In this document: one piece after another, positions 36,555-62,551 of the stretch
How positions within the stretch are numbered: the stretch's first letter is position 1
Layout of the letters: the number at the start of each line of letters is the position of its first letter
Assembly (NCBI GenBank): GCA_965207855.1
Contig: OZ242310.1
Span: forward strand, 5,128,151 to 5,192,150
From: Candidatus Poribacteria bacterium
GTDB lineage: Bacteria; Poribacteria; WGA-4E; WGA-3G
Reading direction: 5' to 3'
DNA: 64,000 bases
The notes under the pieces: model-generated
Told to the model about the DNA's origin: nothing
Seen by the model: only the letters and a program-made list of their open reading frames with translations
Databases searched by the model: none
Translations under genes and position numbers: made by a program

Positions 36555-36595
36555 CTTCTTTTGTCCTTAGCCTAACCTGATACTGCTTTTTCTTA

Positions 36596-37660: not shown

Positions 37661-37666
37661 CGGTCC

Positions 37667-39439
37667 TCACCTATTGCTGGTTTGATTGCGAACACCTTCA
37701 AGGTACTTAAAAGCATTAATTTCCTCTCGCTCCGCTTGAGAATTAGGTTTTTTCATTTTCACTAAAATGGGAAAATTTACCATCTGACCCGATAATAGTG
37801 CCTCGCCTACCTCAAGATTCGGAAGTAAGTTTGCTTCCTCCTCACCTAACGACTCAACGACCCTTTTCACAAAAATCTGATCAGCTGGGTTTACCATTCG
37901 CATGATAATATAAGAGTTGCATTGAGAAAGAGTGGTCTCGTCAAGTCGCGAAGGCCGTTGACTGATTACAACCAATCCGATGTTGAATTTCCTTCCTTCC
38001 TGAGCAATCTGCTTAGTTATGGTGATGGACTGTTGTTCGGCAGAAGAAGTACCGCGCCCAGGAACGAAATTGTGCGCTTCCTCAAGTACTAATAAAAAAG
38101 GCCATTGAAGTTTTTTGGCAACTTTGGCCTCAAATAATTCTTCCGCAATAATACTGTAAATTGTTGCCTGGAAATCTCCAGTATAGCCTGCCATGGACAC
38201 AATTGAAATTTTACCATCCTGAACTAGCTCCTTACGATCTTGAGGCATAGGTTTCGAGTCACCCGCAATCTCTTGATTGATTCTTTCCATTCTAAGAAGT
38301 TGGGATGCTGCCCTCCGAGCTCTTTTGTATATTCCCTCTAGAGTTCCAGGTATGTGTCCTTGCAAAGGTAGATTCCTCCAACAGATCTGACTTAGATACT
38401 CAAAATCGTCACGATTACCACTACGGGCATCTCTTATTGATTGAACAGCAGCATCCGCTATATTGGCAATTAGCCAAAGATCGGGTTTAATACCATTTTG
38501 ATGAATCCAATTATCATTAAGTCTATTAGCTAGCCAGTCTATCCTTTCATGTTCTTCAGCTTCGTAAAATCTCCTGGTTGCAGCAAATAAATCACCGAAT
38601 AAGGTCTCCATTGGAGGTGTTAGGTTGTATCCAAGATTGTTAACAATCTGTGCCACTGTATCTGCTTCTTGCTCAAAAATCGGGATGGTAGCGTAGTACC
38701 GATCAACCCGCTCATGATCTTGAAACTGTTCACTATCTGCTAGTCCTGAGTAATCCCCATGCGGATCGAAAACAACCATTGGATATTGTTTATCCGCCAA
38801 TTGTTCAATAATCCGCCGGGCTGCCCAACTCTTTCCAGCCCCTGTCATTGCAAGGATAGCCAAATGGCGAGTAACTATGGCGTGTCCATCCACTTTCACA
38901 TCAACCTTAGAACGGTTAGAAAGAGTAGCAATATCTAGTGCCCTAGTTTGATCCTCTGCTAAATTTCCCACTAAAATACGTTCTAGATCTTTTGAACCTG
39001 GTCCATAAGCACTAGTAGCTGGTTTAGGAGGATATCGCAAACTTTCAAGTTTACCGGATTCTTTATTTTTTGACTCACCGGACTCTTCACTTTCTAACTC
39101 AGCGGATTCTTCCTTTCCTAATTGTTCATATCCCAGTACTTGGCATACGGCTGATACCATCTCACGACTTAGAGAAAGTACAGTTTCCAGAGGATCAGTC
39201 TGTGTTTCTGCCAGTTCGTGCCCCGCTTCAGCTGGGAAGAGAGGGTTGATACGTTCTATCCTTTGGACCTTTGCCCAAACCCTTATTTCTTTTAACTCTT
39301 CGCTATCTCCCAACTCATTTAACATAGCATCCACTGCGATGATATCCTGTTCACGGATCGCTTCGGGCGTTACAGCAAGACGAAATTCTTTACTTGTACT
39401 TTCACCAACAAGTGTCCCAACGATTCTTTCTTTTTCCAT
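37667..39439 (-). CDS. HerA-like (DUF87/FtsK-HerA superfamily) ATPase
   Basis: 590 aa; Walker A LAMTGAGKS; LLVLEEAHNF Walker B; GRKFNIGLVVISQRPSRLDETTLSQCNSYIIMRMVNPADQ block characteristic of HerA/DUF87 ATPases; N-terminal barrel-like region. Confidence 0.75.
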   Translation of the reverse strand: MEKERIVGTLVGESTSKEFRLAVTPEAIREQDIIAVDAMLNELGDSEELKEIRVWAKVQRIERINPLFPAEAGHELAETQTDPLETVLSLSREMVSAVCQVLGYEQLGKEESAELESEESGESKNKESGKLESLRYPPKPATSAYGPGSKDLERILVGNLAEDQTRALDIATLSNRSKVDVKVDGHAIVTRHLAILAMTGAGKSWAARRIIEQLADKQYPMVVFDPHGDYSGLADSEQFQDHERVDRYYATIPIFEQEADTVAQIVNNLGYNLTPPMETLFGDLFAATRRFYEAEEHERIDWLANRLNDNWIHQNGIKPDLWLIANIADAAVQSIRDARSGNRDDFEYLSQICWRNLPLQGHIPGTLEGIYKRARRAASQLLRMERINQEIAGDSKPMPQDRKELVQDGKISIVSMAGYTGDFQATIYSIIAEELFEAKVAKKLQWPFLLVLEEAHNFVPGRGTSSAEQQSITITKQIAQEGRKFNIGLVVISQRPSRLDETTLSQCNSYIIMRMVNPADQIFVKRVVESLGEEEANLLPNLEVGEALLSGQMVNFPILVKMKKPNSQAEREEINAFKYLEGVRNQTSNR

Positions 39440-39441
39440 GA

Positions 39442-41001
39442 TTACCTACCTTCTGCAGTTGGCCGAAAGATCCAATCTCGGTGTTTCATATAAATCGCCT
39501 GCACCAACACCTTTCGCATATCTTCATCGCTAACTTCACCCTTCTGCAGGCTCACCCCTAGTGTATAACGAATCATTTTGTCGTACGCTTTTGTCATCCA
39601 GCTAGGCACATGGGCAAACTTATCCACGATATCCAAACCGACGGGAAATCCATAATTAGGCAAAAGACGCGAATATAAATATACACGCCTCACAGCTTCT
39701 TTCACTTGGTCTTCTCCAAGTTTAGAAAAAACCTCAACCCTAATGGGTTCAGTATTTTCGTTAACCTGAACATAGGTGCCCTTTATGGAAGGAAAACCAA
39801 ACTGCCTGCCATCTCTCAAGCAGGAAAAATCCACTTGCGAACTTTCTGATTCATTTGGAAGTCGAATTTGACCTGACCCCAAACCGATAGTCGACTTGTT
39901 TACTTTCCAAGACTCAGAATATTCTCCAGTATTAAGAAGCCAAGCCAAGAGAAGATTATCTGTATAACCTAACCTATCCATCAAATTTTTAGGAGAAGTA
40001 AGGTCAGAAAGACCAAACATGTCATTGAAATAGTTCTGTTTTCCCTTTTCACGTAGACTACGAAAAACACGTTTAAGTAATATCGCCTCAGAGAAATTCC
40101 GCGACTTTCCTCGTTCCACTACTCCCGCAATGATAGGACGAGGTTCCCTATTTAGTGCCACAGAAATCAATTTTCTATAGAGAAATGCAATCCATGACAA
40201 CGGTTCAAAAAGCCGAAGATCTGCCCATTCATCGGACCTCCCGCCAGCCATATCTGGATAAATATCAAGACGGGCTTCTTTAAGAAAATCTTCCTTCAAC
40301 TGATTTGCTTGTTCTTTATCACCCGAATAGTGTTTTAGAAACAGGTTAATATCCGCTTCAGTAAAAGGTGTATGACCTGCATAAGCGTCCATCAAATAAA
40401 CCAGCGGACCTTGGAACAATAGGACTCTTATATCTGGATTGCGGTTCAACGCTGAAAGTCCACCCAGTAACTCAGCAGTAATGCGGACAATATCTGTGAA
40501 GTCCTCCCGCTCCTTACTGCCTCCTTCAAGATCTCCGAAGACTACCGGGTAATAGCCAAAATTCTCCCGCTCTGCCAGATTCCCTTCACCGACACGTACT
40601 GCATAAGATCCTACGCGCAACAAGATAGGGACTTGAGATAATTCTGACTGACCAATTCCGCCATCAATAAAACTAACTAGTTCGTTTTGAAACTCCTCCC
40701 AAACTGTATTTTTGACTGAAAACGTCTGAAGGATAGGATTTTCTCGCGTTCCTCTATTAGTCTGATCTATAGCCTGACGCAAATGAGTTATAAAACAAGC
40801 TGTATTACGATAATAGTTATCTCGCAAATTTTCAGCTACTAACAGCGATTTTTCCATTATCTTCATCATTAACTGAGGCTGACGAAGAAGATCCTCTTGT
40901 ACATCGTTCTCGGGCAATCGCTCATTTACCTCCGATTGGTCATCTTGTGTATCTCTATCAGGAGTACCCGTATCAATAGATCTCGTATTTAATTTCACCA
41001 T
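39442..41001 (-). CDS. NurA-like nuclease candidate (HerA partner), function unproven
   Basis: Start reassigned to ATG 41001 (MVKLNTRS), preceded by a strong GGAGG RBS and 7 nt after the upstream stop; FIDGGIGQSE resembles the NurA N-terminal Asp motif; stop abuts the HerA start. Confidence 0.4.
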   Translation of the reverse strand: MVKLNTRSIDTGTPDRDTQDDQSEVNERLPENDVQEDLLRQPQLMMKIMEKSLLVAENLRDNYYRNTACFITHLRQAIDQTNRGTRENPILQTFSVKNTVWEEFQNELVSFIDGGIGQSELSQVPILLRVGSYAVRVGEGNLAERENFGYYPVVFGDLEGGSKEREDFTDIVRITAELLGGLSALNRNPDIRVLLFQGPLVYLMDAYAGHTPFTEADINLFLKHYSGDKEQANQLKEDFLKEARLDIYPDMAGGRSDEWADLRLFEPLSWIAFLYRKLISVALNREPRPIIAGVVERGKSRNFSEAILLKRVFRSLREKGKQNYFNDMFGLSDLTSPKNLMDRLGYTDNLLLAWLLNTGEYSESWKVNKSTIGLGSGQIRLPNESESSQVDFSCLRDGRQFGFPSIKGTYVQVNENTEPIRVEVFSKLGEDQVKEAVRRVYLYSRLLPNYGFPVGLDIVDKFAHVPSWMTKAYDKMIRYTLGVSLQKGEVSDEDMRKVLVQAIYMKHRDWIFRPTAEGR

Positions 41002-41008
41002 TATCCTC

Positions 41009-41812
41009 CTATCCTTTTGAACAAATTTCAACCCCAAGTTGCTGCAAAACCCGTTTTGCTTCGTTTGTGTGAAAAGCACTCACAGGTAAACCAGTTAATT
41101 GGTTAACTACCCACTTGAGAGGGACTTGTTTATTTTCTATCTGCACATACCACATCTGGTATTTGGGAATATTGCGTTCTTTTGCAAGTGCAACATTTAT
41201 TCTCTCCATTATTTGTTCGGGAGTTAGTACAATTTCAATGCCCCGAAGAGATGCCCGACCTTGTTTAACAACCTCCGTATGATTATCGGGAGGTAGTGAT
41301 ACACTCTTACGTAGCCAGCTGTGAAGTTCTGCCAATTTGCATCCCATCGATCCTTGAGAAACGGTCACATTGAGATTAGTGGAAGTTACCGATTTATACC
41401 CATCTAATACCCTCAAATAGTCTCTCCCCATGCTTATGAAAAACTCTTGGTATTGTTTGCTATTTAAAATTTGATCAAGTTGGTTCAGAGTCGGTTTTTG
41501 CAATTCTTTAACTCGTTGCGGTGTCATTCGATGATCATAGTTAGGAATTCGTTCACCATCCGAAATCAATCCAAATCTTGCTGATAAAATATACACATCA
41601 AGTGATTGTTTCCCAGATGGGTGTGCACGCAGGAACTTACTCATCACCCGAAATGGCGGTCCATCATAGCGTTTTAAGGCGGGTAGTAAACCTTGATCGG
41701 AGCGTTTCGCCCTGGAACACGAGAGAATCAGCAAGCGTAGATTTGAAGAAGTTTCTTTTTTACACATTGTATTTACTATTCCAAGTTTACTATTCCAACC
41801 CGTTATAAACAT
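41009..41812 (-). CDS. hypothetical protein with N-terminal LLILSCSRAKR motif (DUF328/YaaA-like start), operonic with NurA-like/HerA/TGT-like genes
   Basis: ORF in track; true start may be the internal Met (MCKKE, about 41767); stop 7 nt upstream of the NurA-like start. Confidence 0.5.
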   Translation of the reverse strand: MFITGWNSKLGIVNTMCKKETSSNLRLLILSCSRAKRSDQGLLPALKRYDGPPFRVMSKFLRAHPSGKQSLDVYILSARFGLISDGERIPNYDHRMTPQRVKELQKPTLNQLDQILNSKQYQEFFISMGRDYLRVLDGYKSVTSTNLNVTVSQGSMGCKLAELHSWLRKSVSLPPDNHTEVVKQGRASLRGIEIVLTPEQIMERINVALAKERNIPKYQMWYVQIENKQVPLKWVVNQLTGLPVSAFHTNEAKRVLQQLGVEICSKG

Positions 41813-51768: not shown

Positions 51769-52605
51769 TTAACGTTCTAACTTTACGCTCGCCCAAACCG
51801 TTGTTAAACGTCCTTTTGGCGAGACAGGCGTGAACCCAAAGAGCCTACCGAGTCCTTTGTCCATGATCTCATTGATGTCGGCTTCGCTTAAAGCGGTATT
51901 GAAGACAGCGACATCGTCCATGAGTCCCCACCCGGGTCGCTGGTCGGGCATCCCGCCAATGTTGAGGGCTTGTCCTGTTAATCCAAAAACGCCACCGGTA
52001 TTGGCTTGCGCATCAACCTTGCCGTCTACATAGGCTATCATCTTCTTACTATCGTATGTGAAAGCGATGTGGTGCCACTGGTCATCGTTGACGAGCGTTG
52101 GACCGGAGACCCATGAGGGTGCGAGCTGGCCACTGCCAATCTCAACCTTCCCGTGCCCACCACCTCTTCCGGGTCCAAAGATGTTCAACAGGTTGGTATA
52201 CATGAAGTTAATGATGGCATGGTCGTCGTTACAACAACCACCCAAAACGACTTTATCCTTTTTCTTCAGTTTCACCCACGTCGTTGCGGTGTATTCCTCA
52301 GCACAACTGTCCAAACTTTTTGAAGTCTCAACCCTTGCAATCTGGAAGTCGTTATCACCGGAGAGACTCAACGCCTTATCAAATTTCCCATCGTCGACCA
52401 ATTCGGCACCTTTAAGCAATTCCGCATCATTGCCGTTATCGGTAGAATCGGGAGACATATCGTTTTTGACTTCATCAAAGAGCCATACGCCAACGATGTT
52501 TTTGGTATCAATTGCCGCATCGCTCACGGGTGTAAGCATCAAGGAGATAACCATTAAGCAAATTATCCCGAAAATAGATAAGTTTCGCACAGCATTACCC
52601 TCCAT
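51769..52605 (-). CDS. secreted LamG/concanavalin-A-like lectin domain protein
   Basis: 278 aa; signal peptide; LamG-type sandwich signature (DDQWHHIAFTYD, LNIGG, DDVAVFNTALSEADINEIM). Confidence 0.55.
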   Translation of the reverse strand: MEGNAVRNLSIFGIICLMVISLMLTPVSDAAIDTKNIVGVWLFDEVKNDMSPDSTDNGNDAELLKGAELVDDGKFDKALSLSGDNDFQIARVETSKSLDSCAEEYTATTWVKLKKKDKVVLGGCCNDDHAIINFMYTNLLNIFGPGRGGGHGKVEIGSGQLAPSWVSGPTLVNDDQWHHIAFTYDSKKMIAYVDGKVDAQANTGGVFGLTGQALNIGGMPDQRPGWGLMDDVAVFNTALSEADINEIMDKGLGRLFGFTPVSPKGRLTTVWASVKLER

Positions 52606-52890: not shown

Positions 52891-55800
52891 GTGCAGATAC
52901 ATTTTTTGCTAAAATTTGTAGACCAGTTAACCTTAAAAGCGCGAAATCTGCTGTTAAAAACTGGACTTATCCTTATCATTGTAATCTCTGCAATGTCTGA
53001 AGTCGCTGTGAGTCGTATCGCTGAAGAAGAAACCGAATCGACAGAAGAAACGCAAACAGAGGCTACAAACCCCCGCCAACGCGCCGCCACTCCTGATACC
53101 GAGGTATCCGAGACCCCTGAGGAACATCAGCATTACACTGAATTCGGCCTGTCCAACCGCAACCCCTTTGATAGTGGTAGTGCGTCAAAACACTTCATCT
53201 GGCAGAATCGCGATCAGCAAGAATGGCAGGCACTGGATACAGCGCAAGAAACTGAAGACCCAGAGCCGACAACCGATAGCGATCGCCTCATACAACCCTA
53301 CTTAGACAGTCTCCGAAGATGGCGGTATCCCCCAGACATGACCGACCTCAGCAAACTCTACAATTGGAAACCGAAGCCGAAACGGGACGAAGAAGGTATC
53401 GCGCTCCCCATGGATTCCAATCTCAAGATTACAGGCTTACAATCCGTAACGATAGAGGCAAATAAGACTCACTACTTCGGAGAAGGGGATCTGAACCGAT
53501 ACGGCGGATACGGTTATGGTGGCGGATACGGGAGTTACTCATCGGGACTCGACTTAGGGCTCACATCGTCGTACGGTTATGAGGATTTCGGCTATAGCAG
53601 CGGCGGATTTGGGGGTGGATACGGTTCAGGGCTTGGAAGTGGATATAGCAGTTACGGAGGCGGCTATAGTAGCGGATATGGCAGCGGGTATGGGGGATAT
53701 GGTGGGTATGGGAGTGGCGGTGTTCCGCGAGCAACAGGCTTTAACCTACGACAGATTCAGCAGTTCGGTCTCCACGGTCGTGTCGGACAACGGACGCATA
53801 TTGCCGTAGATTACAGTGCCGGTGGCAGCAGTTTCGGCAGCGGTGGCTACGGCGGCTACGGTGGTGGCTATGGCGGCTACGGCGGTGGGTATGGTATAGG
53901 GGGTGCGAAGGAGCAGAAGATTAAAATCTGGTATGAAGGTACCCCGGATAGTATTATAAAAACGTTCTCTTTCGGCGACATCACACTCAGCTTACCGAAT
54001 ACCCGTTTTTTGAATATCAATCGGAACTTATTCGGGCTTGAAGGCGTTTTTGAATGGAAAAACGCACGTCTGACAGCGTTCGGTTCCCGGAGCAAGGGAA
54101 TACGCGAGGTACGGACTTTCCGAGGACAATCGCGGCGCGCAGGTGGAGGCTACGGGTACGGCCCCCGTGGCATTCAGATTCAAGACACCAACTATGTTAA
54201 AAGCAGGTTCTACCACATCCATAGAGATGAAGATGGTGCCCTTCATGAGGCATATCTGCCCATAAAAGCAGGGAGCGAAGAAATTTACATCGATGATGGT
54301 GTTGTGGGCAACAACCAAGGCGGTAAAAGGACGAGTCGCGGCTATTTCAACCCACAGTTCACCGGGCAAGACTACAATATAGACTATGAAACGGGTGAGA
54401 TAGAATTTCTCTCGCCGATTTCGGCGAGTTACACCATCGTTGTGGCGTACGAATATCTGGGTAGTGGTGGCGGCAGTGTTGGAAACCCCGAAGAAGTCTT
54501 TGTCGACGAAAACGGAGATGGGACCCTTGATGAGGAAGGGGAAGAAGTCGGCTACGTTGTGCTAAAAGAGAAGGGTTTCCGTGGGACAGAGGCGACCCAC
54601 GTCTACAGTCTCGGCAACCGAAACATTAATCCGCGCGACTTCACACTCACAATCATTCGCCAAGGACAAAGTGATACGTTCCAAACGAGTAGCGGTTCCG
54701 CCGCTTACATCGAAATTTTCGGTTTGGACCAAAACGGCGATGGTAATATCGATGCCCAGTTCATAGACTACGATAGAGGTATTCTTCGTTTTCCAACAAC
54801 CTACGGCAGCCATCCGTTTCAAATCACAGATCCGAACCACCCCTACTATGCCTACCGTGATACGCTCAGCAACAACGCCATCTATCTTGAAGGTGTCCGA
54901 ACAGATGCCCAAATCTATACGATTATCGCCGATTACGCGTATCAATCAGAGACCTACAACGTCGGCTTATTCGTCATTCCAAACAGTGAAACCGTTCGCC
55001 TCAACGGTCGTCTCCTGACCCGCGACACCGATTATATGATGCTGTATGAGGTTGGCACGCTCCGTTTTTTCAGGCAGCTCGATGAGTTTGATGAAATTGT
55101 TGTGGAATTTGAAAAGACACCGTTCGGCGGTTCATCACAACAGGCTGTCGTCGGTGCCTGGTTAGAGTACACACATAAACCGAAGCCTAAATCGGGAAGA
55201 GAACAGAGCCTTGAGGATAGATTTAACCGATTAGGCGGTATGCAAACGATGGACCCGACGCTTGGCACCGGAACCCAAGACGCTTTCGGTGAAACTTTTT
55301 CGAGAGGCAGAAGCGGTGGCTTCGGAAGGAGTGGTTTCGGCGGCGGTTTTGGACGTAGCGGATTTGGTAGCGGCTTCGGGGGCAGTGGCTTTGGGGGCGG
55401 TTACAGCAGTTACGGCGGTCTCGGCGGTAGGTCTCGGAGTTACGGCAGCTACGGCAGCAGGATGAACTACTTCAATCCTGTTTTCCAAAAAGGATTCGCG
55501 TTATCAACGGGTTATATTCTGAATACCGGCCAAAAACCGGCGGAAATACCAGATGTCAACAGCGTTCCCAACCGTTTACAAGCGGTCAACGTAAACACCA
55601 GTTTCGGCAGAGAATTTAATATTGCAGGCATCTTCAATCTATTACCGTTCATTAATATGCGCAACTTCCCACTTTCCCTCGACTTTAGTGGGGAAGCCGC
55701 TTACTCACATAATAACCCGAATAGTATAGGGGTTGCACTCATTGATAGTATGGAGGGTGCGAAGGAAGCGACAACGGTGCCCACGCTGAAATACAACTGG

Positions 55801-58800
55801 AAACATAGCAGTCTACCTTATGTTTCACGAAACCAAACGACAACTGGAAATCCATCGGATTATCGAGTGATACCGACCCATGAAAACAGAGCCATTTTTA
55901 GGGTTGTCCTGAAAGATAAAAACGAATCCGAAGCCATCGGAAACTACATGCGAAACCGGGATGTCCCTGCTTCCTCAATCCAACCGCTCTCCCTCTCGAC
56001 CGAAGAACGGCTTATTATGGAACTCGGTTACGATTTCAGAGATGTCGTTGCAGAATGGGGAGGCTTTTCAAACGGTCTATCCGCATCAGGTGTAGATTAT
56101 TCGGAACGCGGTTTCCTCGAAATCTGGCTACGCGTCCAAGGCGACGATAATGTGACACTGCACTTGAACCTCGGTGTCGTGAACGAAGATACCGATGAAG
56201 ACCAGCGGTTGGACAGCGAAGACCTTCCTGATACGCTAATTGACACAAATGGGGATGGCAGTGTCGATGCCTTAGATTTGGACTTGGAGAATCTCTCAGA
56301 CGTTGACCGCTATCGCGGAAACGGCGCACTGGATACCGGTGAAGACGTAGGATGGAATTACGATGGACCTCTGGGTGGCATCTCTGTGGGTGAAGATAAC
56401 CAGATCCTGGACAGCGAAGACCTCAACGGGGACGGTGTACTCGATGGTGCCGATGCCTACTTTGAAATCTCAATCCCACTCAATGAGATCCCGAATGAAT
56501 GGATCAAAAGCAAAAATGCAAATGACTGGATGTTCCTGAGTATTCCGCTCTCGAAATTTACGCCAACGGGTTCGCGGCTCCCCAGTCTTGTATTCGTGCA
56601 ACACTTCCGGTTCTGGTTGAGCAAAAACGCACCCGGCAACGCACAAGGCACCTTGCAGTGGGCATCCATAGAAATTGTTGGAAACAAATGGCAACAAGGA
56701 ATTATAACCCGCTCCGCCTCGCAAATCAATCCGGAGATTGAACCTACACTTAGCGATCCTGCGCTTACACCTACAGATGAAACACTCTCAACAAGCACAA
56801 TCGTCGAGGATACACTCGAAAAGTTCATCATTGGCACAAAAGACAACTTCAGCTACGATGATTATCAGAGCGCGTATCTTGACATTGAGGACAATGAACT
56901 CTTCAAAAAACTGCATCCATTTACAGCAACGTCCCTCGGCTTTCAAACGCAACAGCAACGCGAACAGACGCTGAGTCTTGAGTATTATCTCTTTCCGGGA
57001 TCTTACGGCGTTACTTCTAAACAACTGAAAGGTTTAACGCAAAGCGAAGGGCAAGACTTTAGCAAGCACGATACGCTCCGATTTTGGCTCTATGGTGATA
57101 AAAGCGATACAACTTTTGTTTTGCAACTCGCCCCGACCGTCCGCACCGGCTATCGCAGCTCGTTTTATAGTTCAGACCCGTTCGTTGATCAGACACAGGA
57201 AGAAGAGGTCAATGTTTTTGAGAATCTAACAGACTATTATGAATATACGGTGCCGATCGACTTTGATGGCTGGAAATTGATTGAAATTGATCTACAGGAC
57301 TTGCACAGGAACGTCTATCCCGATGTAGTGGTCAGCGATCCGCAGTCAGCAATCAGCGATCCCTCTCTTGTAGGAACAGAGATACCACCCCCCACTACGG
57401 ATAGCCAACCGATAGACGATGCCCCCGATGGACACCCTGATGGCTTCGCGATTCGTGGGAGAAACAGCGCGCGACTCTCGATTAAAAACATTGGTGGTAT
57501 CCTATTGGGTATTCGTAATGACACCGAGCGTGAAATCAGCGGTGAGATCTGGGTGAACGAGATCCATCTCGGCGATCCGCTTGTTCGTGCCGGATGGGCG
57601 CGGCGTGGCAATATGTCAGTCGGTCTCGGTAATATTGTTAAGTTGCGGGGCGGTTATGCGAGCCAAGACAAAGACTTTGAAAGCGGTGCTGGCGAAGTCG
57701 GCAGACAACGGCTTTCTTCACGCGGATACAGCACGACGAACAACGATTACAACGTTGATGCAGATGTTACGCTCTTCTCGTGGTTACCCGTCCGATATGC
57801 CATCCGCCAACAGGAAACGGAAACCGAGAGTCAGCGGGGCGGTTATAGTAGTTTTCAGAGCGGGAAAAGCGAAATTCGGAGTCGAGACTTTTCTGTTCAA
57901 TTCAACCGAAATCCGTTTCCAAACCTCGGCTTCGCTTATAACTATCAAGATTTCTGGAACGAACGTCAAGGCACGCAAATTAGCCATCTCTATACCGGCA
58001 GTTTCCGTTACGATCTCGGTTCAAAGCTCGGCGTTAATGCGCAGTATCGCCACGAGGATATACTTGCCAAACCGGAAACCGCGACAGATACGGCTTCAAC
58101 TTCCAGCTCCTATTATAGTTACGGTTACGGCAGAAATCGGGACGAAAAGACAGATAGTGGTACAATAACGTTAAATATTAATCCGACAAACGTCTTCAGC
58201 CTGAGTCCAACTTACGACATCAGCCGGACGCTTGAAAGACGAGAAGATCGAAGTTCCAGTGTGTCCTTTGGTAGTAATGTAGCAACAGCGTCAGAACCGG
58301 CTGAACCCGAAGAAGAGATAGAACCCGACTTTTCAATTGCGCAACGCGAACATCGCTTGTCGCTCACACCGCGTCTGAATCGGGATCTGCTTGGGATGCG
58401 ACCGACTGTCACAAGCCGGATGAGTTTCCGTGAGAATTGGTTCAGCGAAGAAAAAAATGCGTCGCTCAATGGAAACGTCAGCCTTGGTATGAATCTACGC
58501 ATCGAAAAATGGTTCGGATGGCTCTTAAATGGCAGTCAGCAGTCAGCAATCGGCAATCAGCAATCAGCAGATCGTGTTCCAGGAGAAAACGCTGTATCTG
58601 CCACAAAGGAGTTACCGATAACCGATAACCAACAACCGACAACTCTTACAGAACAGTTACGTGAAGATGGTATTGATGAGACCCAAATCCAAGAGCTTGA
58701 AGAAAAGCGTGGTGATTGGATTGAACGCGATAAAACAGCGGAAGGCGAACCGCGAATAGCGAATAGCGAACCGCCAACGGTTTCCAACAGCCAACAACAG

Positions 58801-59634
58801 GATGGGCTTCTGAACCGAATGCTAAAAAGTTTTACCGTTAGCACGAACGCCAACTTTACAGCAACCGAATCGTATCGGCGGCTTGCATCCGGTCAGTCAA
58901 TTATGGAAATCTATTCGCTTGCCGAAGATGCCAAGGAACGGACGAACTCGCGGCGGAGCAACCGTTACACGTTGCGAAGCTCGGTAGATCCATGGAAATG
59001 GGCATCCTTTGGGGCAAACGTCAGTACCTCTGATAGTTTCCGAAAGAGCTCAGCCAGCATTTATACATCACACGCAGAAGCTTATGAAACCGACCTAAAA
59101 CTGACTGCGAAGGAAACCACCAGCTTCCAACTCCGTTATAGTTTCACGAAACGAGACAATACAACACAGGAAACGACGCTCAGCGATAGTGCCGCGCACA
59201 CACCCTCACTCAGCTGGATACACACATGGGGGAAAGAGATTCGGACGGCATTGGGGATTCGCACGACTTTCCAAGATCAGCAGCGCAGTGGTATTCAAAG
59301 CAACGCCTTTATCGTCACACCAAATCTGAGTGTTGATTACCGCTACCGGACAGAAAATGGGATACGCCTCCCGTTTTTCGGCAGAATCCCACTGCAACAC
59401 GATTTGGAGTTAACCAACACCCTCTCTTGGGCGATTCGGCGGGAGCAATTCGGTGCCAACCGTGAAGAACGTTCGGAACGCTACGAGACAACGCTGCGCG
59501 TCGGATACAAAATTAGTACGCATATTACGGCAAACCTCCACCTCGGTGTCAGCTACAATAACGACAGAGTTGAAGAGGGTAGGGACTTCCTTTCCATTGC
59601 AAGCGCGCTGACCATCCGCGGCGAGATTCAGTAA
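52891..59634 (+). CDS. giant (2247 aa) secreted Gly/Tyr-rich surface protein with acidic Ca-binding-type repeats and a beta-rich C-terminal region; SprA-like is a tentative comparison only
   Basis: Single uninterrupted ORF; N-terminal signal/anchor; acidic low-complexity stretch; repeated GGYGYGGGYGS tracts; clustered D-x-D-x-D-G segments (DTNGDGSVDALDLD, DSEDLNGDGVLDGADAY); C-terminal about 700 aa with alternating hydrophobic pattern. Confidence 0.7.
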   Translation: MQIHFLLKFVDQLTLKARNLLLKTGLILIIVISAMSEVAVSRIAEEETESTEETQTEATNPRQRAATPDTEVSETPEEHQHYTEFGLSNRNPFDSGSASKHFIWQNRDQQEWQALDTAQETEDPEPTTDSDRLIQPYLDSLRRWRYPPDMTDLSKLYNWKPKPKRDEEGIALPMDSNLKITGLQSVTIEANKTHYFGEGDLNRYGGYGYGGGYGSYSSGLDLGLTSSYGYEDFGYSSGGFGGGYGSGLGSGYSSYGGGYSSGYGSGYGGYGGYGSGGVPRATGFNLRQIQQFGLHGRVGQRTHIAVDYSAGGSSFGSGGYGGYGGGYGGYGGGYGIGGAKEQKIKIWYEGTPDSIIKTFSFGDITLSLPNTRFLNINRNLFGLEGVFEWKNARLTAFGSRSKGIREVRTFRGQSRRAGGGYGYGPRGIQIQDTNYVKSRFYHIHRDEDGALHEAYLPIKAGSEEIYIDDGVVGNNQGGKRTSRGYFNPQFTGQDYNIDYETGEIEFLSPISASYTIVVAYEYLGSGGGSVGNPEEVFVDENGDGTLDEEGEEVGYVVLKEKGFRGTEATHVYSLGNRNINPRDFTLTIIRQGQSDTFQTSSGSAAYIEIFGLDQNGDGNIDAQFIDYDRGILRFPTTYGSHPFQITDPNHPYYAYRDTLSNNAIYLEGVRTDAQIYTIIADYAYQSETYNVGLFVIPNSETVRLNGRLLTRDTDYMMLYEVGTLRFFRQLDEFDEIVVEFEKTPFGGSSQQAVVGAWLEYTHKPKPKSGREQSLEDRFNRLGGMQTMDPTLGTGTQDAFGETFSRGRSGGFGRSGFGGGFGRSGFGSGFGGSGFGGGYSSYGGLGGRSRSYGSYGSRMNYFNPVFQKGFALSTGYILNTGQKPAEIPDVNSVPNRLQAVNVNTSFGREFNIAGIFNLLPFINMRNFPLSLDFSGEAAYSHNNPNSIGVALIDSMEGAKEATTVPTLKYNWKHSSLPYVSRNQTTTGNPSDYRVIPTHENRAIFRVVLKDKNESEAIGNYMRNRDVPASSIQPLSLSTEERLIMELGYDFRDVVAEWGGFSNGLSASGVDYSERGFLEIWLRVQGDDNVTLHLNLGVVNEDTDEDQRLDSEDLPDTLIDTNGDGSVDALDLDLENLSDVDRYRGNGALDTGEDVGWNYDGPLGGISVGEDNQILDSEDLNGDGVLDGADAYFEISIPLNEIPNEWIKSKNANDWMFLSIPLSKFTPTGSRLPSLVFVQHFRFWLSKNAPGNAQGTLQWASIEIVGNKWQQGIITRSASQINPEIEPTLSDPALTPTDETLSTSTIVEDTLEKFIIGTKDNFSYDDYQSAYLDIEDNELFKKLHPFTATSLGFQTQQQREQTLSLEYYLFPGSYGVTSKQLKGLTQSEGQDFSKHDTLRFWLYGDKSDTTFVLQLAPTVRTGYRSSFYSSDPFVDQTQEEEVNVFENLTDYYEYTVPIDFDGWKLIEIDLQDLHRNVYPDVVVSDPQSAISDPSLVGTEIPPPTTDSQPIDDAPDGHPDGFAIRGRNSARLSIKNIGGILLGIRNDTEREISGEIWVNEIHLGDPLVRAGWARRGNMSVGLGNIVKLRGGYASQDKDFESGAGEVGRQRLSSRGYSTTNNDYNVDADVTLFSWLPVRYAIRQQETETESQRGGYSSFQSGKSEIRSRDFSVQFNRNPFPNLGFAYNYQDFWNERQGTQISHLYTGSFRYDLGSKLGVNAQYRHEDILAKPETATDTASTSSSYYSYGYGRNRDEKTDSGTITLNINPTNVFSLSPTYDISRTLERREDRSSSVSFGSNVATASEPAEPEEEIEPDFSIAQREHRLSLTPRLNRDLLGMRPTVTSRMSFRENWFSEEKNASLNGNVSLGMNLRIEKWFGWLLNGSQQSAIGNQQSADRVPGENAVSATKELPITDNQQPTTLTEQLREDGIDETQIQELEEKRGDWIERDKTAEGEPRIANSEPPTVSNSQQQDGLLNRMLKSFTVSTNANFTATESYRRLASGQSIMEIYSLAEDAKERTNSRRSNRYTLRSSVDPWKWASFGANVSTSDSFRKSSASIYTSHAEAYETDLKLTAKETTSFQLRYSFTKRDNTTQETTLSDSAAHTPSLSWIHTWGKEIRTALGIRTTFQDQQRSGIQSNAFIVTPNLSVDYRYRTENGIRLPFFGRIPLQHDLELTNTLSWAIRREQFGANREERSERYETTLRVGYKISTHITANLHLGVSYNNDRVEEGRDFLSIASALTIRGEIQ

Positions 59635-59800: not shown

Positions 59801-62551
59801 ATGATAGGAAATAATACAGACATACCCCGCCCAGAGTATCCACGTCCAGATTTTCAACGCGGCACATCAGAAGGTATTGACTGGATATGCCTCAACGGCA
59901 CGTGGGAGTTCGCTTTTGATCCAGATGATACGGGTGAACAAGAGAAGTGGTTCACCCCTGAATCAATTGCCGATTCACCGTGGACGTTGAAAATACAGGT
60001 GCCGTACCCTTGGGAAAGCCTCGCAGCATGGGGAGAAGAAGCGCAAGCGGATAACGAAAACTACCTGAGCAAAAATGCCTATCTCACACCTGAAGAGGTC
60101 ACCTGCGGCGGTATAGAGCGGAGCGGCAATTACCGTGAAGCACCCCGACACACCATCGGATGGTACCGTAAAACCGTATCCGTTCCAGAAACATGGAACG
60201 GGAAACGGACGATTCTGACTTTCGGTGCAGTGGACTGGCACGCAAAAGTTTGGGTAAACGGCGAATACATCGGTGAACATGAGAATGGATACCTTCCGTT
60301 TGAACTTGACATCACAGACGCACTAACACCCGGAGCATCTACAGTCATCGTCGTTCGTGCTTATGACGCGCAGGACCACAGTGAACAACTCGCTGGAAAA
60401 CAGATAGGTTGGTATGAACGCACCAGCGGCATCTGGCAGACGGTTTACCTTGAACCCAGAAATGCGACGTACATCAAGCAGTGCCATATCACCCCTGATA
60501 TTGATAACAGCACTGCCACACTTGACATCACTATTGACGGAGAAGTCAGTGCGGGAACCACGCTTAATTGGCAGTGCGTTTCTCCTTTGGGAGAAATAGC
60601 CGTCAGCGGTCAGCGGTCAGCAGTCGGTGGAACAGAAGCCGACAACACCGTGAAAGGTATAGGGACGGGGACTACACTTACAATTCCTATCAATATTCCC
60701 CGAGAACACCTCCACCTTTGGGATGTGGATACACCCCACCTCTATAATGTCACACTGACGTTGACATCAGGGGAATCTGTTATCGACAGGGTTTTCACCT
60801 ACTTTGGGATGCGGAAAGTGTCCATTGCAAAAGCCCCAGGTGGGGACTACCAGTATATCTACCTTAATAACCGTCCCGTTTACTTACTCGGTGCTCTGAA
60901 TCAGTCTTTCAATCCGGAAGGTGTATATACCTTCCTTACAGACGAAGCGATCCGACGGGACATCGAACGCGCAAAGGAATTTGGGTTCAACTTCCTGCGT
61001 TTGCATATTAAAGTAGACGAACCGCGCCTCTATTACTGGGCTGATAAGTTAGGTATGCTCTTTATGTGCGATATTCCTAACTTCGGCAGCTACACAGAGA
61101 AAGCACAGGCACGATTTGTAGAGACGCTTCGCGGGAACATCGCGCGCGATTACAATCACCCGTCAATCATCTCATGGTGCAATTTCAACGAAACGTGGGG
61201 CCTCGGCGGTAGAGAATACAAAGAGATGCCTGAACGCCAGGAATGGGTGCGTGAGATGTATCACCTCGCTAAATCCTTAGATGAGACGCGTCTGATAGAA
61301 GACAACTCGCCATGTCTATACGACCACGTGGAAACCGACATCAACTCGTGGCACTTCTACATTAATGATTATGAACAAGCGAAGGAACACATCGCGAACG
61401 TTGTCCAAGAGACGGACCCGGGTTCGGTGTTTAACTACGTTGGTGGTAACGTACAGACGGATGCGCCGTTGATTAATAGTGAATACGGCGGTATCTCAGC
61501 CGGTGCGGGGGATAAGGATGTCTCTTGGTGTTTCAAATACCTTACGAACGAACTCCGCCTCCATCCGAAAATCTGCGGTTACATCTACACGGAGTTGCAG
61601 GACATCGAATGGGAGCACAACGGTTTTATGAACTACGACCGATCAATAAAGGCGTTCGGATACGACTATCTGGATATCAATACACTTGACTTTATCGCCA
61701 TCGACTATCCGCCCGGTAAAACAGTTGCACCGGGTGAAGGGATAAAAGCCGACATTTACGCCAGCCACTTCTCACATAAAACCATTACAGGGACAACCCT
61801 CCACTGGCAACTGGACACAATGTCGGCAACTGGACACATTACACGGGGATATGTCTCAGGAAAAGTTGAGATTCCATTCCCACAATATCAGGTGCAGCAG
61901 GTGCATGAACTCGAACTTGTCGTGCCAGACATTCATCAGGCAGTCGGCACCTTGCACATCTGGGTAACAGATGACACAGATGTTGTCGTCGCCCGTAATT
62001 TTATCAACTTCGAGCACTTCGTAGCGGCGGTTGACCCAATCGAATCAAACGATCCAAAACGGATGACGCTCAACTACGCCCCTGGCAATATATCCGCATC
62101 CTCTTGGAAGGAACCAACAAGGCGTGAACAACTTTTCTCTGCGGTTGGGAACGGTTATGTGGAATATGAGATCTCATTGCCAGAGGGCCTTAATCCAGCA
62201 GATGTTGCAGAAATGGAACTCATTTTTGAAGCCTCCAGCGCGTCCGGTGGTGCCCGTCAAACGGAGCCGGAGAAACATCCATCGGATGTAACAATTTCTG
62301 TCAACGGCGTTGAAATCGACACTATCCGCATCTCCGATTGTCCGGCAGACGCCCGCGGTGTACTCTCTTACATCCACGGAGAACCGGGTATCTATGGCTA
62401 TCTTCACAATATCAAGTTTGAGGCATCAGATATTTTGAAGGGTGCATCAGACACGCTAACAGTCCGTTATGCAGCGAAAGATGGATTCGCACTCTACGGT
62501 GCGCGCATGGGTAGATACCCGACTGGACCGCATCTGCGTATTGGTTTTTAA
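59801..62551 (+). CDS. glycoside hydrolase family 2 (beta-galactosidase/beta-mannosidase-like)
   Basis: 916 aa; GH2 sugar-binding-domain motif WHAKVWVNGEYIGEHENGYLPFELDIT; TIM-barrel FNFLRLHIK, NETWG, NSEYGG catalytic-region motifs. Confidence 0.8.
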   Translation: MIGNNTDIPRPEYPRPDFQRGTSEGIDWICLNGTWEFAFDPDDTGEQEKWFTPESIADSPWTLKIQVPYPWESLAAWGEEAQADNENYLSKNAYLTPEEVTCGGIERSGNYREAPRHTIGWYRKTVSVPETWNGKRTILTFGAVDWHAKVWVNGEYIGEHENGYLPFELDITDALTPGASTVIVVRAYDAQDHSEQLAGKQIGWYERTSGIWQTVYLEPRNATYIKQCHITPDIDNSTATLDITIDGEVSAGTTLNWQCVSPLGEIAVSGQRSAVGGTEADNTVKGIGTGTTLTIPINIPREHLHLWDVDTPHLYNVTLTLTSGESVIDRVFTYFGMRKVSIAKAPGGDYQYIYLNNRPVYLLGALNQSFNPEGVYTFLTDEAIRRDIERAKEFGFNFLRLHIKVDEPRLYYWADKLGMLFMCDIPNFGSYTEKAQARFVETLRGNIARDYNHPSIISWCNFNETWGLGGREYKEMPERQEWVREMYHLAKSLDETRLIEDNSPCLYDHVETDINSWHFYINDYEQAKEHIANVVQETDPGSVFNYVGGNVQTDAPLINSEYGGISAGAGDKDVSWCFKYLTNELRLHPKICGYIYTELQDIEWEHNGFMNYDRSIKAFGYDYLDINTLDFIAIDYPPGKTVAPGEGIKADIYASHFSHKTITGTTLHWQLDTMSATGHITRGYVSGKVEIPFPQYQVQQVHELELVVPDIHQAVGTLHIWVTDDTDVVVARNFINFEHFVAAVDPIESNDPKRMTLNYAPGNISASSWKEPTRREQLFSAVGNGYVEYEISLPEGLNPADVAEMELIFEASSASGGARQTEPEKHPSDVTISVNGVEIDTIRISDCPADARGVLSYIHGEPGIYGYLHNIKFEASDILKGASDTLTVRYAAKDGFALYGARMGRYPTGPHLRIGF

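What the first reader, a model, noticed from the sequence alone, without database searches (positions are those of the whole stretch)
52891..59634. 2247-aa secreted Gly/Tyr-rich giant protein with Ca-binding-type acidic repeats; possible SprA-like outer-membrane translocon/adhesin
- One uninterrupted ORF encodes a signal/anchor, an acidic N-terminal stretch and multiple GGYGYGGGYGS low-complexity tracts, flanked by conserved blocks.
- A thrombospondin-type-3/dockerin-like D-x-D-x-D-G cluster sits at about 56150-56480.
- The C-terminal third is long and beta-rich.
- Size and architecture are reminiscent of SprA-type giant barrels of type IX secretion, or of RHS-less adhesins, but I cannot confirm this.
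- It is divergently paired with a LamG lectin-like gene and followed by a GH2 glycosidase, suggesting a surface glycan-interaction locus.
Basis: partly seen in the sequence, partly recalled or inferred. Interest (0 to 1): 0.55.

Follow-up and report, generated by a model that had tools for sequence, protein, structure and literature searches.

The report
Divergent SprA-type secretion pore in Poribacteria
This 2247-residue gene encodes a very divergent, database-unnamed version of SprA/Sov, the giant outer-membrane pore of the type IX protein secretion system, in the sponge-associated phylum Poribacteria, and it is the likely missing export channel for that phylum's many proteins that carry a type IX sorting tag.

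Summary
The ORF (52891-59634, +, 2247 aa) and every described feature are real. It is a full-length homologue of SprA/Sov, the T9SS outer-membrane translocon.

- **Curated models:** it scores significantly but below cutoff (TIGR04189 136.6 vs 200 bits; PF14349 22.4 vs 27), and database relatives are named "hypothetical".
- **Homology:** a 31-sequence family profile aligns end to end with SprA from FCB-type phyla (hhalign E=1e-91). One of these matches F. johnsoniae SprA at 5e-62.
- **Structure:** AlphaFold models of both halves hit only SprA chains at the top of the PDB (E=1e-34 to 1e-20).
- **Lineage:** all 80 related genome loci are Poribacteria.
- **Partners:** Poribacterial genomes also encode a PorU sortase and a PorV/PorQ-family protein above curated cutoffs. 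In one chromosome these lie directly upstream of the SprA-like gene. Type-A CTD cargo is present too.
- **Open question addressed:** Kamke et al. 2014 found sorting tags in Poribacteria but no secretion machinery.
- **New feature:** long Gly/Tyr/Ser-rich disordered loops, two conserved family-wide and one subgroup-specific, are absent from all other SprA.
- **Ancestral feature:** the acidic D-x-D block is shared with FCB SprA.
- **Unsupported:** a functional link to the LamG and GH2 neighbours.
- **Untested:** the GldKLMN motor.

The parts
52891..59634 (+). Complete gene for the 2247-aa SprA/Sov-like outer-membrane translocon homologue (Poribacterial type)
   Evidence: ORF. TIGR04189 E=5.6e-40, 136.6 bits. 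hhalign to FCB SprA E=1e-91, collinear over aa 129-2233. Foldseek top hits are SprA only.
52891..53013 (+). N-terminal Sec-type signal region (aa 1-41: basic n-region, hydrophobic LILIIVISAMS)
   Evidence: Read from the sequence. Hydrophobic N-termini are present in homologues. The cleavage site was not predicted with a dedicated tool.
52996..53274 (+). Acidic, fast-evolving N-terminal extension (aa 36-128), inferred to be periplasmic
   Evidence: 22 D/E against 6 K/R. Mean pairwise identity 0.20 and gap fraction 0.54. Distant family members carry LysM in their N-terminal region. The SprA N-terminus is periplasmic in F. johnsoniae (PMC10994853).
53491..53727 (+). G/Y/S-rich low-complexity loop GY1 (aa 201-279)
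   Evidence: Composition. pLDDT 25-31 between two 16-residue strands. Present in all 31 family members and absent from P0087-P0098.
53815..53907 (+). G/Y-rich loop GY2 (aa 309-339), an expansion specific to the closer subgroup
   Evidence: 21-31 aa in the close relatives against 13 aa in the distant ones. Predicted disordered. Weak 9- and 21-nt tandem repeats at 53840-53894.
55273..55476 (+). G/F/S/R/Y-rich low-complexity loop GY3 (aa 795-862)
   Evidence: Composition. pLDDT below 35 across aa 773-862. Conserved in composition across the family and indel-rich, with gap fraction 0.34. Almost nothing in FCB SprA aligns to it.
56176..56466 (+). Acidic D-x-D/N-x-D-G block (aa 1096-1192), an ancestral SprA-family segment and a putative Ca2+-binding region
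   Evidence: 97-104 aa in all 31 family members. D1111, N1120, D1122, D1152 and E1176 are invariant across 63 Poribacterial plus FCB sequences. No TSP3 or dockerin Pfam hit.
56398..57801 (+). Best-matching stretch to TIGR04189 (aa 1170-1637, model positions 1084-1502 of 2319). Includes the sub-threshold Pfam SprA_N match at aa 1530-1633.
57496..59631 (+). C-terminal barrel-wall region (aa 1536-2247), about 26 long antiparallel beta-strands
   Evidence: AlphaFold2 model mdc008280c780, mean pLDDT 71.9. Foldseek: SprA chains 8gl8_A, 8gl6_A, 6h3i_A, 6h3j_A at E=3.7e-26 to 4.6e-20.
58501..58830 (+). Charged helical insertion (aa 1871-1980) between two barrel strands, variable in length (85-319 aa), inferred to be periplasmic
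   Evidence: Helices at model residues 822-931. Length variation. Mean identity 0.29. The side is inferred from strand parity counted back from the C-terminus.
51769..52605 (-). Divergent neighbour: 278-aa LamG (Laminin_G_3) protein. Not shown to be part of the system.
   Evidence: Pfam. No T9SS CTD. Adjacent in 42 of 80 loci.
59801..62551 (+). Downstream neighbour: 916-aa GH2 glycosidase. Not shown to be part of the system.
   Evidence: Pfam and NCBIfam. No CTD. Adjacent in 35 of 80 loci and in one 45%-identical relative.

Best explanation
The gene encodes the Poribacterial orthologue of SprA/Sov, the single-polypeptide giant beta-barrel that forms the outer-membrane translocon of the type IX secretion system.

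Inferred mechanism, by homology with F. johnsoniae:
1. After Sec export and BAM insertion, the protein forms a very large water-filled barrel.
2. Cargo proteins with a type-A C-terminal sorting domain (CTD) enter from the periplasm.
3. The cargo is handed to a PorV-family carrier docked at the barrel.
4. The cargo leaves with that carrier and is processed by the PorU sortase.

Shown here: full-length homology and fold similarity to SprA, and the presence in Poribacterial genomes of PorU, a PorV/PorQ-family protein and CTD-bearing cargo.

Inferred, not shown: that the barrel closes with 36 strands and has a cap and lateral opening; that it transports these cargos; how it is energised (GldLM/GldKN were not tested); and that the N-terminal extension and the helical insert are periplasmic docking elements.

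Lineage-specific: long Gly/Tyr/Ser(Phe)-rich disordered loops replace short loops of other SprA proteins. GY1 and GY3 occur in every family member, and GY2 is expanded only in the closer subgroup. The first two follow outward-running strands, so they probably lie on the extracellular (cap) side. Their role is unknown.
For: **Sequence**
- TIGR04189 (SprA/Sov) E=5.6e-40 in 5 stretches, and PF14349 E=6.8e-5.
- phmmer-level hits to proteins named 'cell surface protein SprA' from Fidelibacterota, Gemmatimonadota, Marinimicrobia and Zixibacteria, at E=7e-21 to 3e-6 in a 5.8-billion-sequence database.
- One of these, P0090, matches F. johnsoniae SprA (6H3I/6H3J) at about 5e-62. It sits in a genuine T9SS cluster with a PorZ-like protein, a PorV-family protein (93.7 bits vs cutoff 90), a PorQ-like protein and CTD cargo.
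- Profile-profile: Poribacterial family against FCB SprA gives probability 100% and E=1e-91. The alignment is collinear over query aa 129-2233 against P0090 aa 82-2086 of 2096.

**Structure**
- AlphaFold2 models of aa 1050-2247 (pLDDT 71.9) and aa 129-1260 (pLDDT 68.1) each have the four SprA chains as top PDB hits: E=3.7e-26 to 4.6e-20, and 1.7e-34 to 8.2e-24.
- The next hits are MtrB at 3e-7 and an unrelated protein at 1.7e-2.

**System context**
- All 80 best genome loci are Poribacteria.
- In L031 (chromosome OZ244616.1), a PorU sortase (NF033707, 425.6 bits vs cutoff 420) and a PorV/PorQ-family gene (NF033709, 102 bits vs cutoff 90) lie on the same strand directly upstream of the SprA-like gene.
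- porU-porV pairs recur in Poribacterial chromosomes.
- Assembly GCA_028824685.1 has the SprA-like gene on JAPPCZ010000083 (L024) and porU-porV on JAPPCZ010000109 (L090).
- Type-A CTDs above the TIGR04183 cutoff occur in genes flanking Poribacterial sprA-like genes, with a classic NYPNPFNPETWIPY...YWDG...G.YFY consensus.

**Literature**
- Kamke et al. 2014 reported many TIGR04183-tagged Poribacterial proteins but no structural Por genes (PMC3909097).
Against: - The protein fails both curated thresholds: TIGR04189 136.6 bits against 200, and PF14349 22.4 against 27.
- Neither the protein nor a Poribacteria-only profile reaches SprA in the PDB by sequence, so the link to characterised SprA is transitive or structural.
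- TM-scores to SprA are low (0.27-0.36 normalised to the query), because the halves were modelled in isolation. Barrel closure, strand number, cap and lateral opening are not demonstrated.
- No T9SS partner or CTD cargo lies in the 64-kb window.
- The porU-porV adjacency to the SprA-like gene is seen in 1 of 80 loci only. Elsewhere porU-porV sit next to anmK-namZ.
- GldK/L/M/N, SprE and SprT, which published predictors treat as mandatory (PMC10515386), were not tested.
- The PorV-family protein passes only the subfamily model, not the PorV equivalog (26.6 bits vs cutoff 250).
Confidence: 0.82

Rival explanations
1. It is an SprA-derived giant barrel that works with PorV and PorU but without the canonical GldLM/GldKN motor and ring. 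That would be a minimal or differently energised type IX-like sorting system. This differs from the best explanation only in how transport is powered.
For: - Kamke et al. 2014 found no structural Por genes in six Poribacterial single-cell genomes.
- No gldKLMN-like gene appears in about 2.3 Mb of Poribacterial flanks around sprA-like and porU-porV genes.
- T9GPred and TXSScan detect T9SS only in Bacteroidetes.
- The PorV-family protein's best match is NCBIfam's 'putative type IX sorting system protein PorV2' model.
Against: - The absence was never tested on whole genomes here.
- SprA itself escaped detection through divergence, so the motor genes could have done the same.
- In Bacteroidota, gldKLMN is normally unlinked to sprA and porUV (own knowledge), so flanking regions say little.
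Confidence: 0.3
2. It is a giant outer-membrane barrel of the SprA superfamily that has been repurposed for something other than protein export, such as a large-solute or polymer uptake channel or an envelope or S-layer anchor. It would use its G/Y-rich loops and its LamG and GH2 neighbours in glycan handling.
For: - LamG and GH2 flank the gene in about half of the loci, and GH2 also follows a 45%-identical homologue.
- Weak Foldseek hits to SlpA/SDBC S-layer barrels and to TonB-dependent receptors for the C-terminal half.
- A sub-threshold CBM_11 hit at aa 1370-1420.
Against: - Homology to SprA is end to end, not limited to a barrel core.
- SprA chains outscore every other barrel by at least 13 orders of magnitude in E-value.
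- Each of the 80 species-representative loci carries this SprA-type gene. Paralogues elsewhere in those genomes were not excluded.
- PorU, PorV and CTD cargo need a translocon, and no other candidate is known.
- LamG and GH2 are not conserved neighbours across the family and carry no CTD.
Confidence: 0.08
3. It is a secreted or surface adhesin (the RHS-less adhesin type the first reader suggested) whose acidic repeats bind calcium and whose G/Y tracts mediate adhesion. In this reading it is not a membrane pore.
For: - Composition: low-complexity G/Y tracts and D-x-D-x-D-G motifs.
- Poribacteria are rich in eukaryote-like adhesion domains (PMC3909097).
Against: - No adhesin, Ig-like, cadherin, TSP3, dockerin or RHS model hits the protein.
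- Adhesin structures score E>0.01 with probability below 0.15.
- The conserved parts are the beta-strand regions shared with SprA.
- The protein has no T9SS CTD of its own.
Confidence: 0.02

Closest known systems
Flavobacterium johnsoniae SprA (PDB 6H3I, 6H3J, 8GL6, 8GL8) and its P. gingivalis orthologue Sov: the T9SS outer-membrane translocon
   Same: - Similar size: 2247 aa against 2403 aa.
- Sec signal, and an N-terminal extension inferred to be periplasmic.
- Collinear homology over almost the whole length, shown through bridging FCB sequences.
- Both modelled halves have SprA chains as their only strong structural matches.
- Occurs in genomes that also have PorU, a PorV-family protein and type-A CTD cargo.
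   Different: - Below the curated TIGR04189 and PF14349 thresholds, with no direct sequence hit to the PDB chains.
- Only 10-14% identity in the structural alignments.
- Two or three 30-120-residue G/Y/S(F)-rich disordered loops are found in no other SprA.
- A variable charged helical insert at aa 1871-1980.
- Some family members add an N-terminal LysM domain.
- The host phylum lies outside Bacteroidota.
- Partners Plug, PPI, SkpA, SprE and the GldLM/KN energy chain are unverified.
SprA proteins of non-Bacteroidota FCB-type phyla (e.g. Fidelibacterota P0090, Marinimicrobia P0095, Zixibacteria P0098)
   Same: - hhalign E=1e-91, with the same order of conserved blocks, including the acidic D/N/G block and the C-terminal strands.
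- These proteins are encoded next to PorV/PorQ-type and CTD genes.
   Different: - They are 23-25% identical to the query.
- They carry a precomputed PF14349 (SprA_N) annotation, and most of the named ones are annotated SprA by their sources.
- They have no G/Y tracts.
- A Peptidase_M28 gene follows them in three phyla, which is not the case in Poribacteria.
Gly/Tyr- or Phe/Gly-rich low-complexity domains (FUS-like [G/S]Y[G/S] regions, FG-nucleoporins, plant and animal glycine/tyrosine-rich structural proteins)
   Same: Composition only: GGYGYGGGYGS and GFGRSGFGGGFG repeats, predicted disorder, conservation of composition rather than sequence, and frequent indels. This comparison rests on my own knowledge.
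   Different: There is no homology. Here the tracts are loops inserted between strands of an outer-membrane barrel. No cohesive or gating behaviour has been shown.

Membership tests
SprA/Sov translocon family (NCBIfam TIGR04189; Pfam PF14349 SprA_N) | Score at or above the curated model cutoffs | tested here: not met
   TIGR04189 scores 136.6 bits against a cutoff of 200 (E=5.6e-40). PF14349 scores 22.4 bits against 27. The protein is therefore not filed as a TIGR04189 equivalog.
SprA/Sov translocon family (NCBIfam TIGR04189; Pfam PF14349 SprA_N) | Full-length collinear homology to bona fide SprA | tested here: met
   hhalign of the family profile against FCB SprA gives probability 100% and E=1e-91. 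Query aa 129-2233 aligns with P0090 aa 82-2086 of 2096. P0090 matches 6H3I/6H3J SprA at about 5e-62.
SprA/Sov translocon family (NCBIfam TIGR04189; Pfam PF14349 SprA_N) | SprA fold: a single-chain giant (36-strand) beta-barrel | tested here: inconclusive
   Both half-models have SprA chains as top and uniquely strong PDB matches, and about 26 long strands lie in the C-terminal 710 aa. The protein could only be modelled in halves of at most 1200 aa, so barrel closure and strand number are not established. TM-scores are 0.27-0.36.
SprA/Sov translocon family (NCBIfam TIGR04189; Pfam PF14349 SprA_N) | Extracellular cap, lateral opening, and docking of PorV or Plug | not testable with these tools
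   This needs a full-length model or a complex with coordinates. Only secondary structure and pLDDT are returned here.
SprA/Sov translocon family (NCBIfam TIGR04189; Pfam PF14349 SprA_N) | About 2000-2400-aa protein with a Sec signal and a periplasmic N-terminal extension | tested here: met
   2247 aa with a hydrophobic N-terminal signal region. The periplasmic location of the N-terminus is inferred from LysM domains in distant members and from F. johnsoniae.
Type IX secretion system (as a system) | Cargo with a type-A C-terminal sorting domain (TIGR04183) | tested here: met
   Poribacterial genes L034:22180-24729 (27.8 bits), L034:24739-26364 (31.6 bits) and L049:14133-16547 (26.0 bits) all exceed the cutoff of 23. 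The CTD consensus is, and Kamke et al. 2014 is. None was found in the window itself.
Type IX secretion system (as a system) | PorU C-terminal signal peptidase (sortase) | tested here: met
   L031:65-6205 scores 425.6 bits on NF033707 against a cutoff of 420. Peptidase_C25 with its propeptide and a CTD recurs next to porV in L084-L087, L089 and L090. This was shown for Poribacterial genomes, not for the window's own genome.
Type IX secretion system (as a system) | PorV carrier protein | tested here: inconclusive
   L031:6705-7709 passes the PorV/PorQ subfamily model (NF033709, 102 bits vs 90). It fails the PorV equivalog (NF033710, 26.6 vs 250) and the PorV2 model (111 vs 325). There are 281 related clusters, and NCBI names some of them 'PorV/PorQ family protein [Candidatus Poribacteria bacterium]'.
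Type IX secretion system (as a system) | GldL/GldM (PorL/PorM) motor and GldK/GldN (PorK/PorN) ring | not tested
   No seed sequences could be obtained and whole Poribacterial genomes could not be scanned. None lies in the window or in the flanks examined. Kamke et al. 2014 reported none.
Type IX secretion system (as a system) | SprE/PorW and SprT/PorT | not tested
   The only signal is a generic TPR match: window 16923-18161 scores 64.2 bits on NF052312 PorW/SprE against a cutoff of 250. That protein passes the YbgF model (116 bits vs cutoff 90.1) and the BamD model (90.7 vs 81.4) instead.
Thrombospondin type-3 / dockerin-type Ca2+-binding repeats | Match to the TSP_3 or Dockerin domain models | tested here: not met
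   Neither is among the Pfam hits at E<=1. Only D-x-[DN]-x-D-G-like motifs are present. The block is an ancestral SprA segment, with D1111, N1120, D1122, D1152 and E1176 invariant across 63 sequences.
Surface adhesins (Ig-like, cadherin or RHS-type giant proteins) | Adhesin repeat domains or an adhesin-like fold | tested here: not met
   No such Pfam or NCBIfam hits. SdrG-type adhesin folds score E>=0.03 with probability at most 0.13.

The most novel reading that the evidence does not exclude
The Gly/Tyr/Ser(Phe)-rich disordered loops, 30-120 residues each, are conserved in composition across the Poribacterial family and found in no other SprA. GY1 and GY3 occur in every family member. In this reading they form a cohesive, FG-nucleoporin- or FUS-like meshwork inside or over the giant pore. 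That meshwork would act as a self-sealing gasket or selective gate, replacing folded cap inserts or the Plug protein, in a type IX-like system that may also lack the canonical GldLM/KN motor. This would be the first phase-like permeability barrier described in a bacterial outer-membrane translocon.
Probability: 0.08. Interest if true: 0.85.

Novelty: new variant of a known kind. Interest (0 to 1): 0.55.

Why it matters
**An old puzzle.** Type IX secretion is usually described as a Bacteroidota system (PMC10994853, PMC10515386). Poribacteria are dominant, uncultivated sponge symbionts placed outside the FCB group in NCBI taxonomy. Kamke et al. 2014 noted that they carry many type IX sorting tags, especially on eukaryote-like repeat proteins, yet no structural secretion genes had been found.

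**A candidate channel.** A conserved but unannotated SprA-type translocon, together with PorU and a PorV-family protein in the same genomes, gives that cargo a plausible export route. It also makes the question testable. If confirmed, the proteins thought to mediate symbiont-host interaction would reach the cell surface by a type IX-like pathway.

**An annotation blind spot.** The case shows that curated SprA models, and predictors built on them, miss this lineage.

**A natural variant.** The G/Y-rich loops are an architectural variant of the largest known single-chain barrel. They could inform how such a wide pore is sealed.

Tried and rejected
- **Direct sequence link to solved SprA.** phmmer of the protein and hmmsearch with a Poribacteria-only profile against PDB sequences found nothing relevant. 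The link had to go through FCB SprA and through fold search.
- **Firestonebacteria relative.** P0088 does not reach the PDB either.
- **CTD cargo screen.** I aligned 150 C-terminal tails and scanned the alignment id against NCBIfam. The output ranks families by member count, so it was uninformative.
- **CTD regex.** My first pattern was too strict and found nothing. Local phmmer and HMM searches with FCB and then Poribacterial CTD seeds worked.
- **Conserved operon partners.** Clustering flanking ORFs across 80 loci found no family-wide neighbour.
- **gldKLMN seeds.** Contexts of FCB sprA genes and of divergent Poribacterial homologues contained none.
- **Literature sources.** The T9GPred supplements and the 2018 SprA structure paper are not held.
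- **Extending the window.** A look-up of the last gene, aimed at reaching porU-porV, failed because the product is not on record.
- **LamG and GH2 as cargo.** Rejected, because neither has a CTD.
- **L031 adjacency as a conserved operon.** Rejected. Related genomes have porU-porV next to anmK-namZ instead.
- **G/Y tracts as recent DNA tandem expansions.** Only weak short repeats are present, with scores of 89 or less.

Full report
**1. Observation**

The ORF is exactly as described: 52891..59634, + strand, GTG start, 2247 aa. Its predicted start aligns with those of its homologues.

- The N-terminus has a basic stretch followed by a hydrophobic segment, typical of a Sec signal.
- Next comes an acidic, poorly conserved stretch at aa 36-128, with 22 D/E.
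- There are three low-complexity tracts:
  - GY1, aa 201-279: 33 G, 16 Y and 15 S of 79.
  - GY2, aa 309-339.
  - GY3, aa 795-862, richer in G/F/S/R.
- The acidic D-x-D/N-x-D-G cluster is at aa 1096-1192, which is nt 56176-56466.
- The C-terminal third is strongly beta-rich, with about 26 long strands in the AlphaFold model.
- LamG lies divergently upstream and GH2 lies downstream.

**2. What it is: sequence evidence**

NCBIfam TIGR04189 (T9SS outer-membrane translocon Sov/SprA) matches at E=5.6e-40 in five stretches, but with 136.6 bits against a curated cutoff of 200. Pfam SprA_N gives 22.4 bits against 27.

A search of 5.8 billion proteins returned 98 hits.
- About 86 are 1400-2390-aa relatives at 37-99% identity. 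The few that carry names are 'hypothetical protein' or 'LysM...' from Candidatus Poribacteria.
- A distant tail at 23-29% identity includes proteins named 'cell surface protein SprA' from Fidelibacterota, Gemmatimonadota, Marinimicrobia and Zixibacteria. It also includes unnamed or 'hypothetical' proteins from Firestonebacteria and Edwardsbacteria.

Neither the protein nor a Poribacteria-only profile reaches the PDB SprA sequences directly. The Fidelibacterota protein P0090 does reach them, at about 5e-62 against 6H3I/6H3J. P0090 also sits in a bona fide T9SS cluster with a PorZ-like protein, a PorV-family protein above cutoff, a PorQ-like protein and CTD cargo.

Profile-profile comparison of 31 Poribacterial sequences against 9 FCB SprA sequences gives probability 100% and E=1e-91. 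With a permissive alignment it is collinear from query aa 129 to 2233, against P0090 aa 82-2086 of 2096. Confidence is high in most blocks. It is low exactly at the G/Y tracts, where FCB SprA has almost nothing to align.

**3. What it is: structural evidence**

| Half | Mean pLDDT | Top PDB hits (Foldseek) | Next hit |
|---|---|---|---|
| aa 1050-2247 | 71.9 | 8gl8_A, 8gl6_A, 6h3i_A, 6h3j_A (all F. johnsoniae SprA), E=3.7e-26 to 4.6e-20 | MtrB at 3e-7, then generic outer-membrane barrels |
| aa 129-1260 | 68.1 | the same four SprA chains, E=1.7e-34 to 8.2e-24 | nothing below 1.7e-2 |

TM-scores are low (0.27-0.36), as expected for half-barrels folded in isolation. Fold identity is therefore supported. 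Closure, the 36-strand count, the cap and the lateral opening are not demonstrated.

**4. Lineage and context**

All 80 best genome loci, of 195 confirmed, are Poribacteria MAGs or chromosomes. NCBI places the phylum among candidate phyla, not in the FCB group.

The window itself is housekeeping (SecDF, tRNA-modification enzymes, dehydrogenases, an ABC transporter) with no other T9SS gene. No neighbour is conserved across the family. LamG (42 of 80 loci) and GH2 (35 of 80) are synteny among the closer relatives, and neither has a sorting domain. The 'glycan locus' reading therefore has no support.

**5. Is there a type IX system in Poribacteria?**

Kamke et al. 2014 reported many Poribacterial eukaryote-like proteins with the TIGR04183 sorting domain. 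They stated that structural Por genes were not found and that the pathway 'remains to be revealed' (PMC3909097). No paper in the searched library links Poribacteria to T9SS components.

Local searches with FCB seeds found the following.
- **Partners next to the gene.** In L031 (chromosome OZ244616.1), a 2046-aa PorU sortase (NF033707, 425.6 bits vs cutoff 420) and a 334-aa PorV/PorQ-family protein (NF033709, 102 bits vs cutoff 90) lie on the same strand immediately upstream of the SprA-like gene.
- **Cargo.** Several flanking genes carry type-A CTDs above the TIGR04183 cutoff. Their consensus is the classic NYPNPFNPETWIPY...YWDG...G.YFY.
- **Spread of PorV.** PorV/PorQ-family proteins form at least 281 clusters, and NCBI names some of them as such in Poribacteria.
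- **porU-porV pairs.** They recur next to anmK-namZ in other Poribacterial chromosomes.
- **Same chromosome.** On a 5,622,920-bp chromosome the pair lies about 34 kb from the SprA-like gene.
- **Same assembly.** Assembly GCA_028824685.1 has both sets of genes on different contigs.

The adjacency in L031 is a one-off. It shows co-occurrence, not an operon. The GldLM motor, the GldKN ring, SprE and SprT could not be tested. Published predictors that require them report T9SS only in Bacteroidetes (PMC10515386).

**6. Lineage-specific anatomy**

- **G/Y tracts, conservation.** GY1 and GY3 are present in all 31 family members down to 40% identity. They are conserved in composition but indel-rich. 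GY2 is an expansion in the closer subgroup.
- **G/Y tracts, distribution.** None occurs in the nearest outgroups or in FCB SprA. They are not recent DNA tandem arrays.
- **G/Y tracts, structure.** In the model they are disordered (pLDDT 25-31) and link long, well-predicted strands. The alternate connections are 3-6-residue turns.
- **Which side of the membrane.** The N-terminus is periplasmic, as inferred from LysM in distant members and from F. johnsoniae, where SkpA and SprE bind the SprA N-terminus. GY1 and GY2 follow outward-running strands, so they are inferred to lie on the extracellular or cap side. The side of GY3 is unassigned.
- **Helical insert.** The charged helical insert at aa 1871-1980 ranges from 85 to 319 aa across the family. 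It is inferred to be periplasmic from strand parity.
- **Acidic block.** It is 97-104 aa long in every member (97 aa in most). Five of its acidic or amide residues are invariant across Poribacterial and FCB sequences. It is therefore an ancestral SprA feature, plausibly a structural Ca2+ site (inference), and not a TSP3 or dockerin module.

**7. Mechanism, rivals and verdict**

*Best explanation (confidence 0.82).* This is the Poribacterial SprA/Sov-type translocon. It exports CTD-tagged proteins with a PorV-family carrier and the PorU sortase.

*Rivals.*
- The same machine without the canonical motor (0.3, nested within the best explanation).
- A repurposed SprA-superfamily barrel (0.08).
- An adhesin (0.02).

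*Verdict.* The protein is not filed as a TIGR04189 equivalog, because that threshold is not met. It is a new, architecturally distinct variant of a known family, in a phylum where the system had been reported missing.

The interest score of 0.55 is moderate. The kind of machine is known, and NCBI already names PorV-family proteins in these MAGs. However, the translocon itself is unannotated, it addresses a stated open question, and the G/Y loops are unprecedented in this family.

Noticed in passing
window 35142-41812: A low-GC island (0.42-0.45 against about 0.48-0.50 elsewhere). It encodes a sigma-54 activator, a TGT-like protein, a HerA/DUF87 helicase, a NurA nuclease and DUF6884. None of the island genes tested (four of the five, all except the sigma-54 activator) has a homologue in any of the 80 Poribacterial loci. 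It looks like an acquired defence or DNA-modification island.
   Followed up: no
window 8247-10117: An adjacent DUF4276 protein and AAA_21/AAA_15 ATPase, a two-gene module of the kind seen in anti-phage systems.
   Followed up: no
L081:16298-17215, L083:7563-8492, L088:15952-16887: A Peptidase_M28 gene lies immediately downstream of sprA in three different phyla: Fidelibacterota, Edwardsbacteria and Zixibacteria. This conserved pairing is, to my knowledge, undescribed for T9SS. It is absent in Poribacteria.
   Followed up: no
L031:65-6205; L084:3642-9857; L085:3595-9894; L089:3424-9843; L090:340-6774: Poribacterial PorU sortases are 2046-2144 aa, about twice the length of the NCBIfam model (1095 positions). 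They carry their own type-A/FlgD_ig CTD. The roughly 900 extra residues are uncharacterised.
   Followed up: partly
L084-L087, L089, L090 (around the porU-porV genes): porU-porV has a conserved context of its own. A zinc alcohol dehydrogenase lies upstream. anmK, namZ and a beta-lactamase-family gene (peptidoglycan recycling) lie downstream on the opposite strand. WD40 and sigma-70/WD40 fusion proteins are nearby.
   Followed up: no
L082:10001-16876 and proteins P0075-P0085: The most divergent family members, at about 40% identity, carry a LysM peptidoglycan-binding domain and have a long acidic N-terminal extension of 155-218 aa. This suggests the translocon is tethered to the cell wall in that subgroup.
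   Followed up: partly
window 57581-58168 (+), inside the gene in another frame: A 195-aa alternative-frame ORF appears 'conserved' in 53 loci. This is most simply a by-product of DNA conservation within the sprA-like gene, not a separate gene.
   Followed up: partly
window 30885-33614: A 909-aa protein has an M14 carboxypeptidase domain in its first 224 residues only. Nothing is recognisable in the remaining roughly 680 residues, there is no NCBIfam hit, and there is no homologue in the 80 loci.
   Followed up: no
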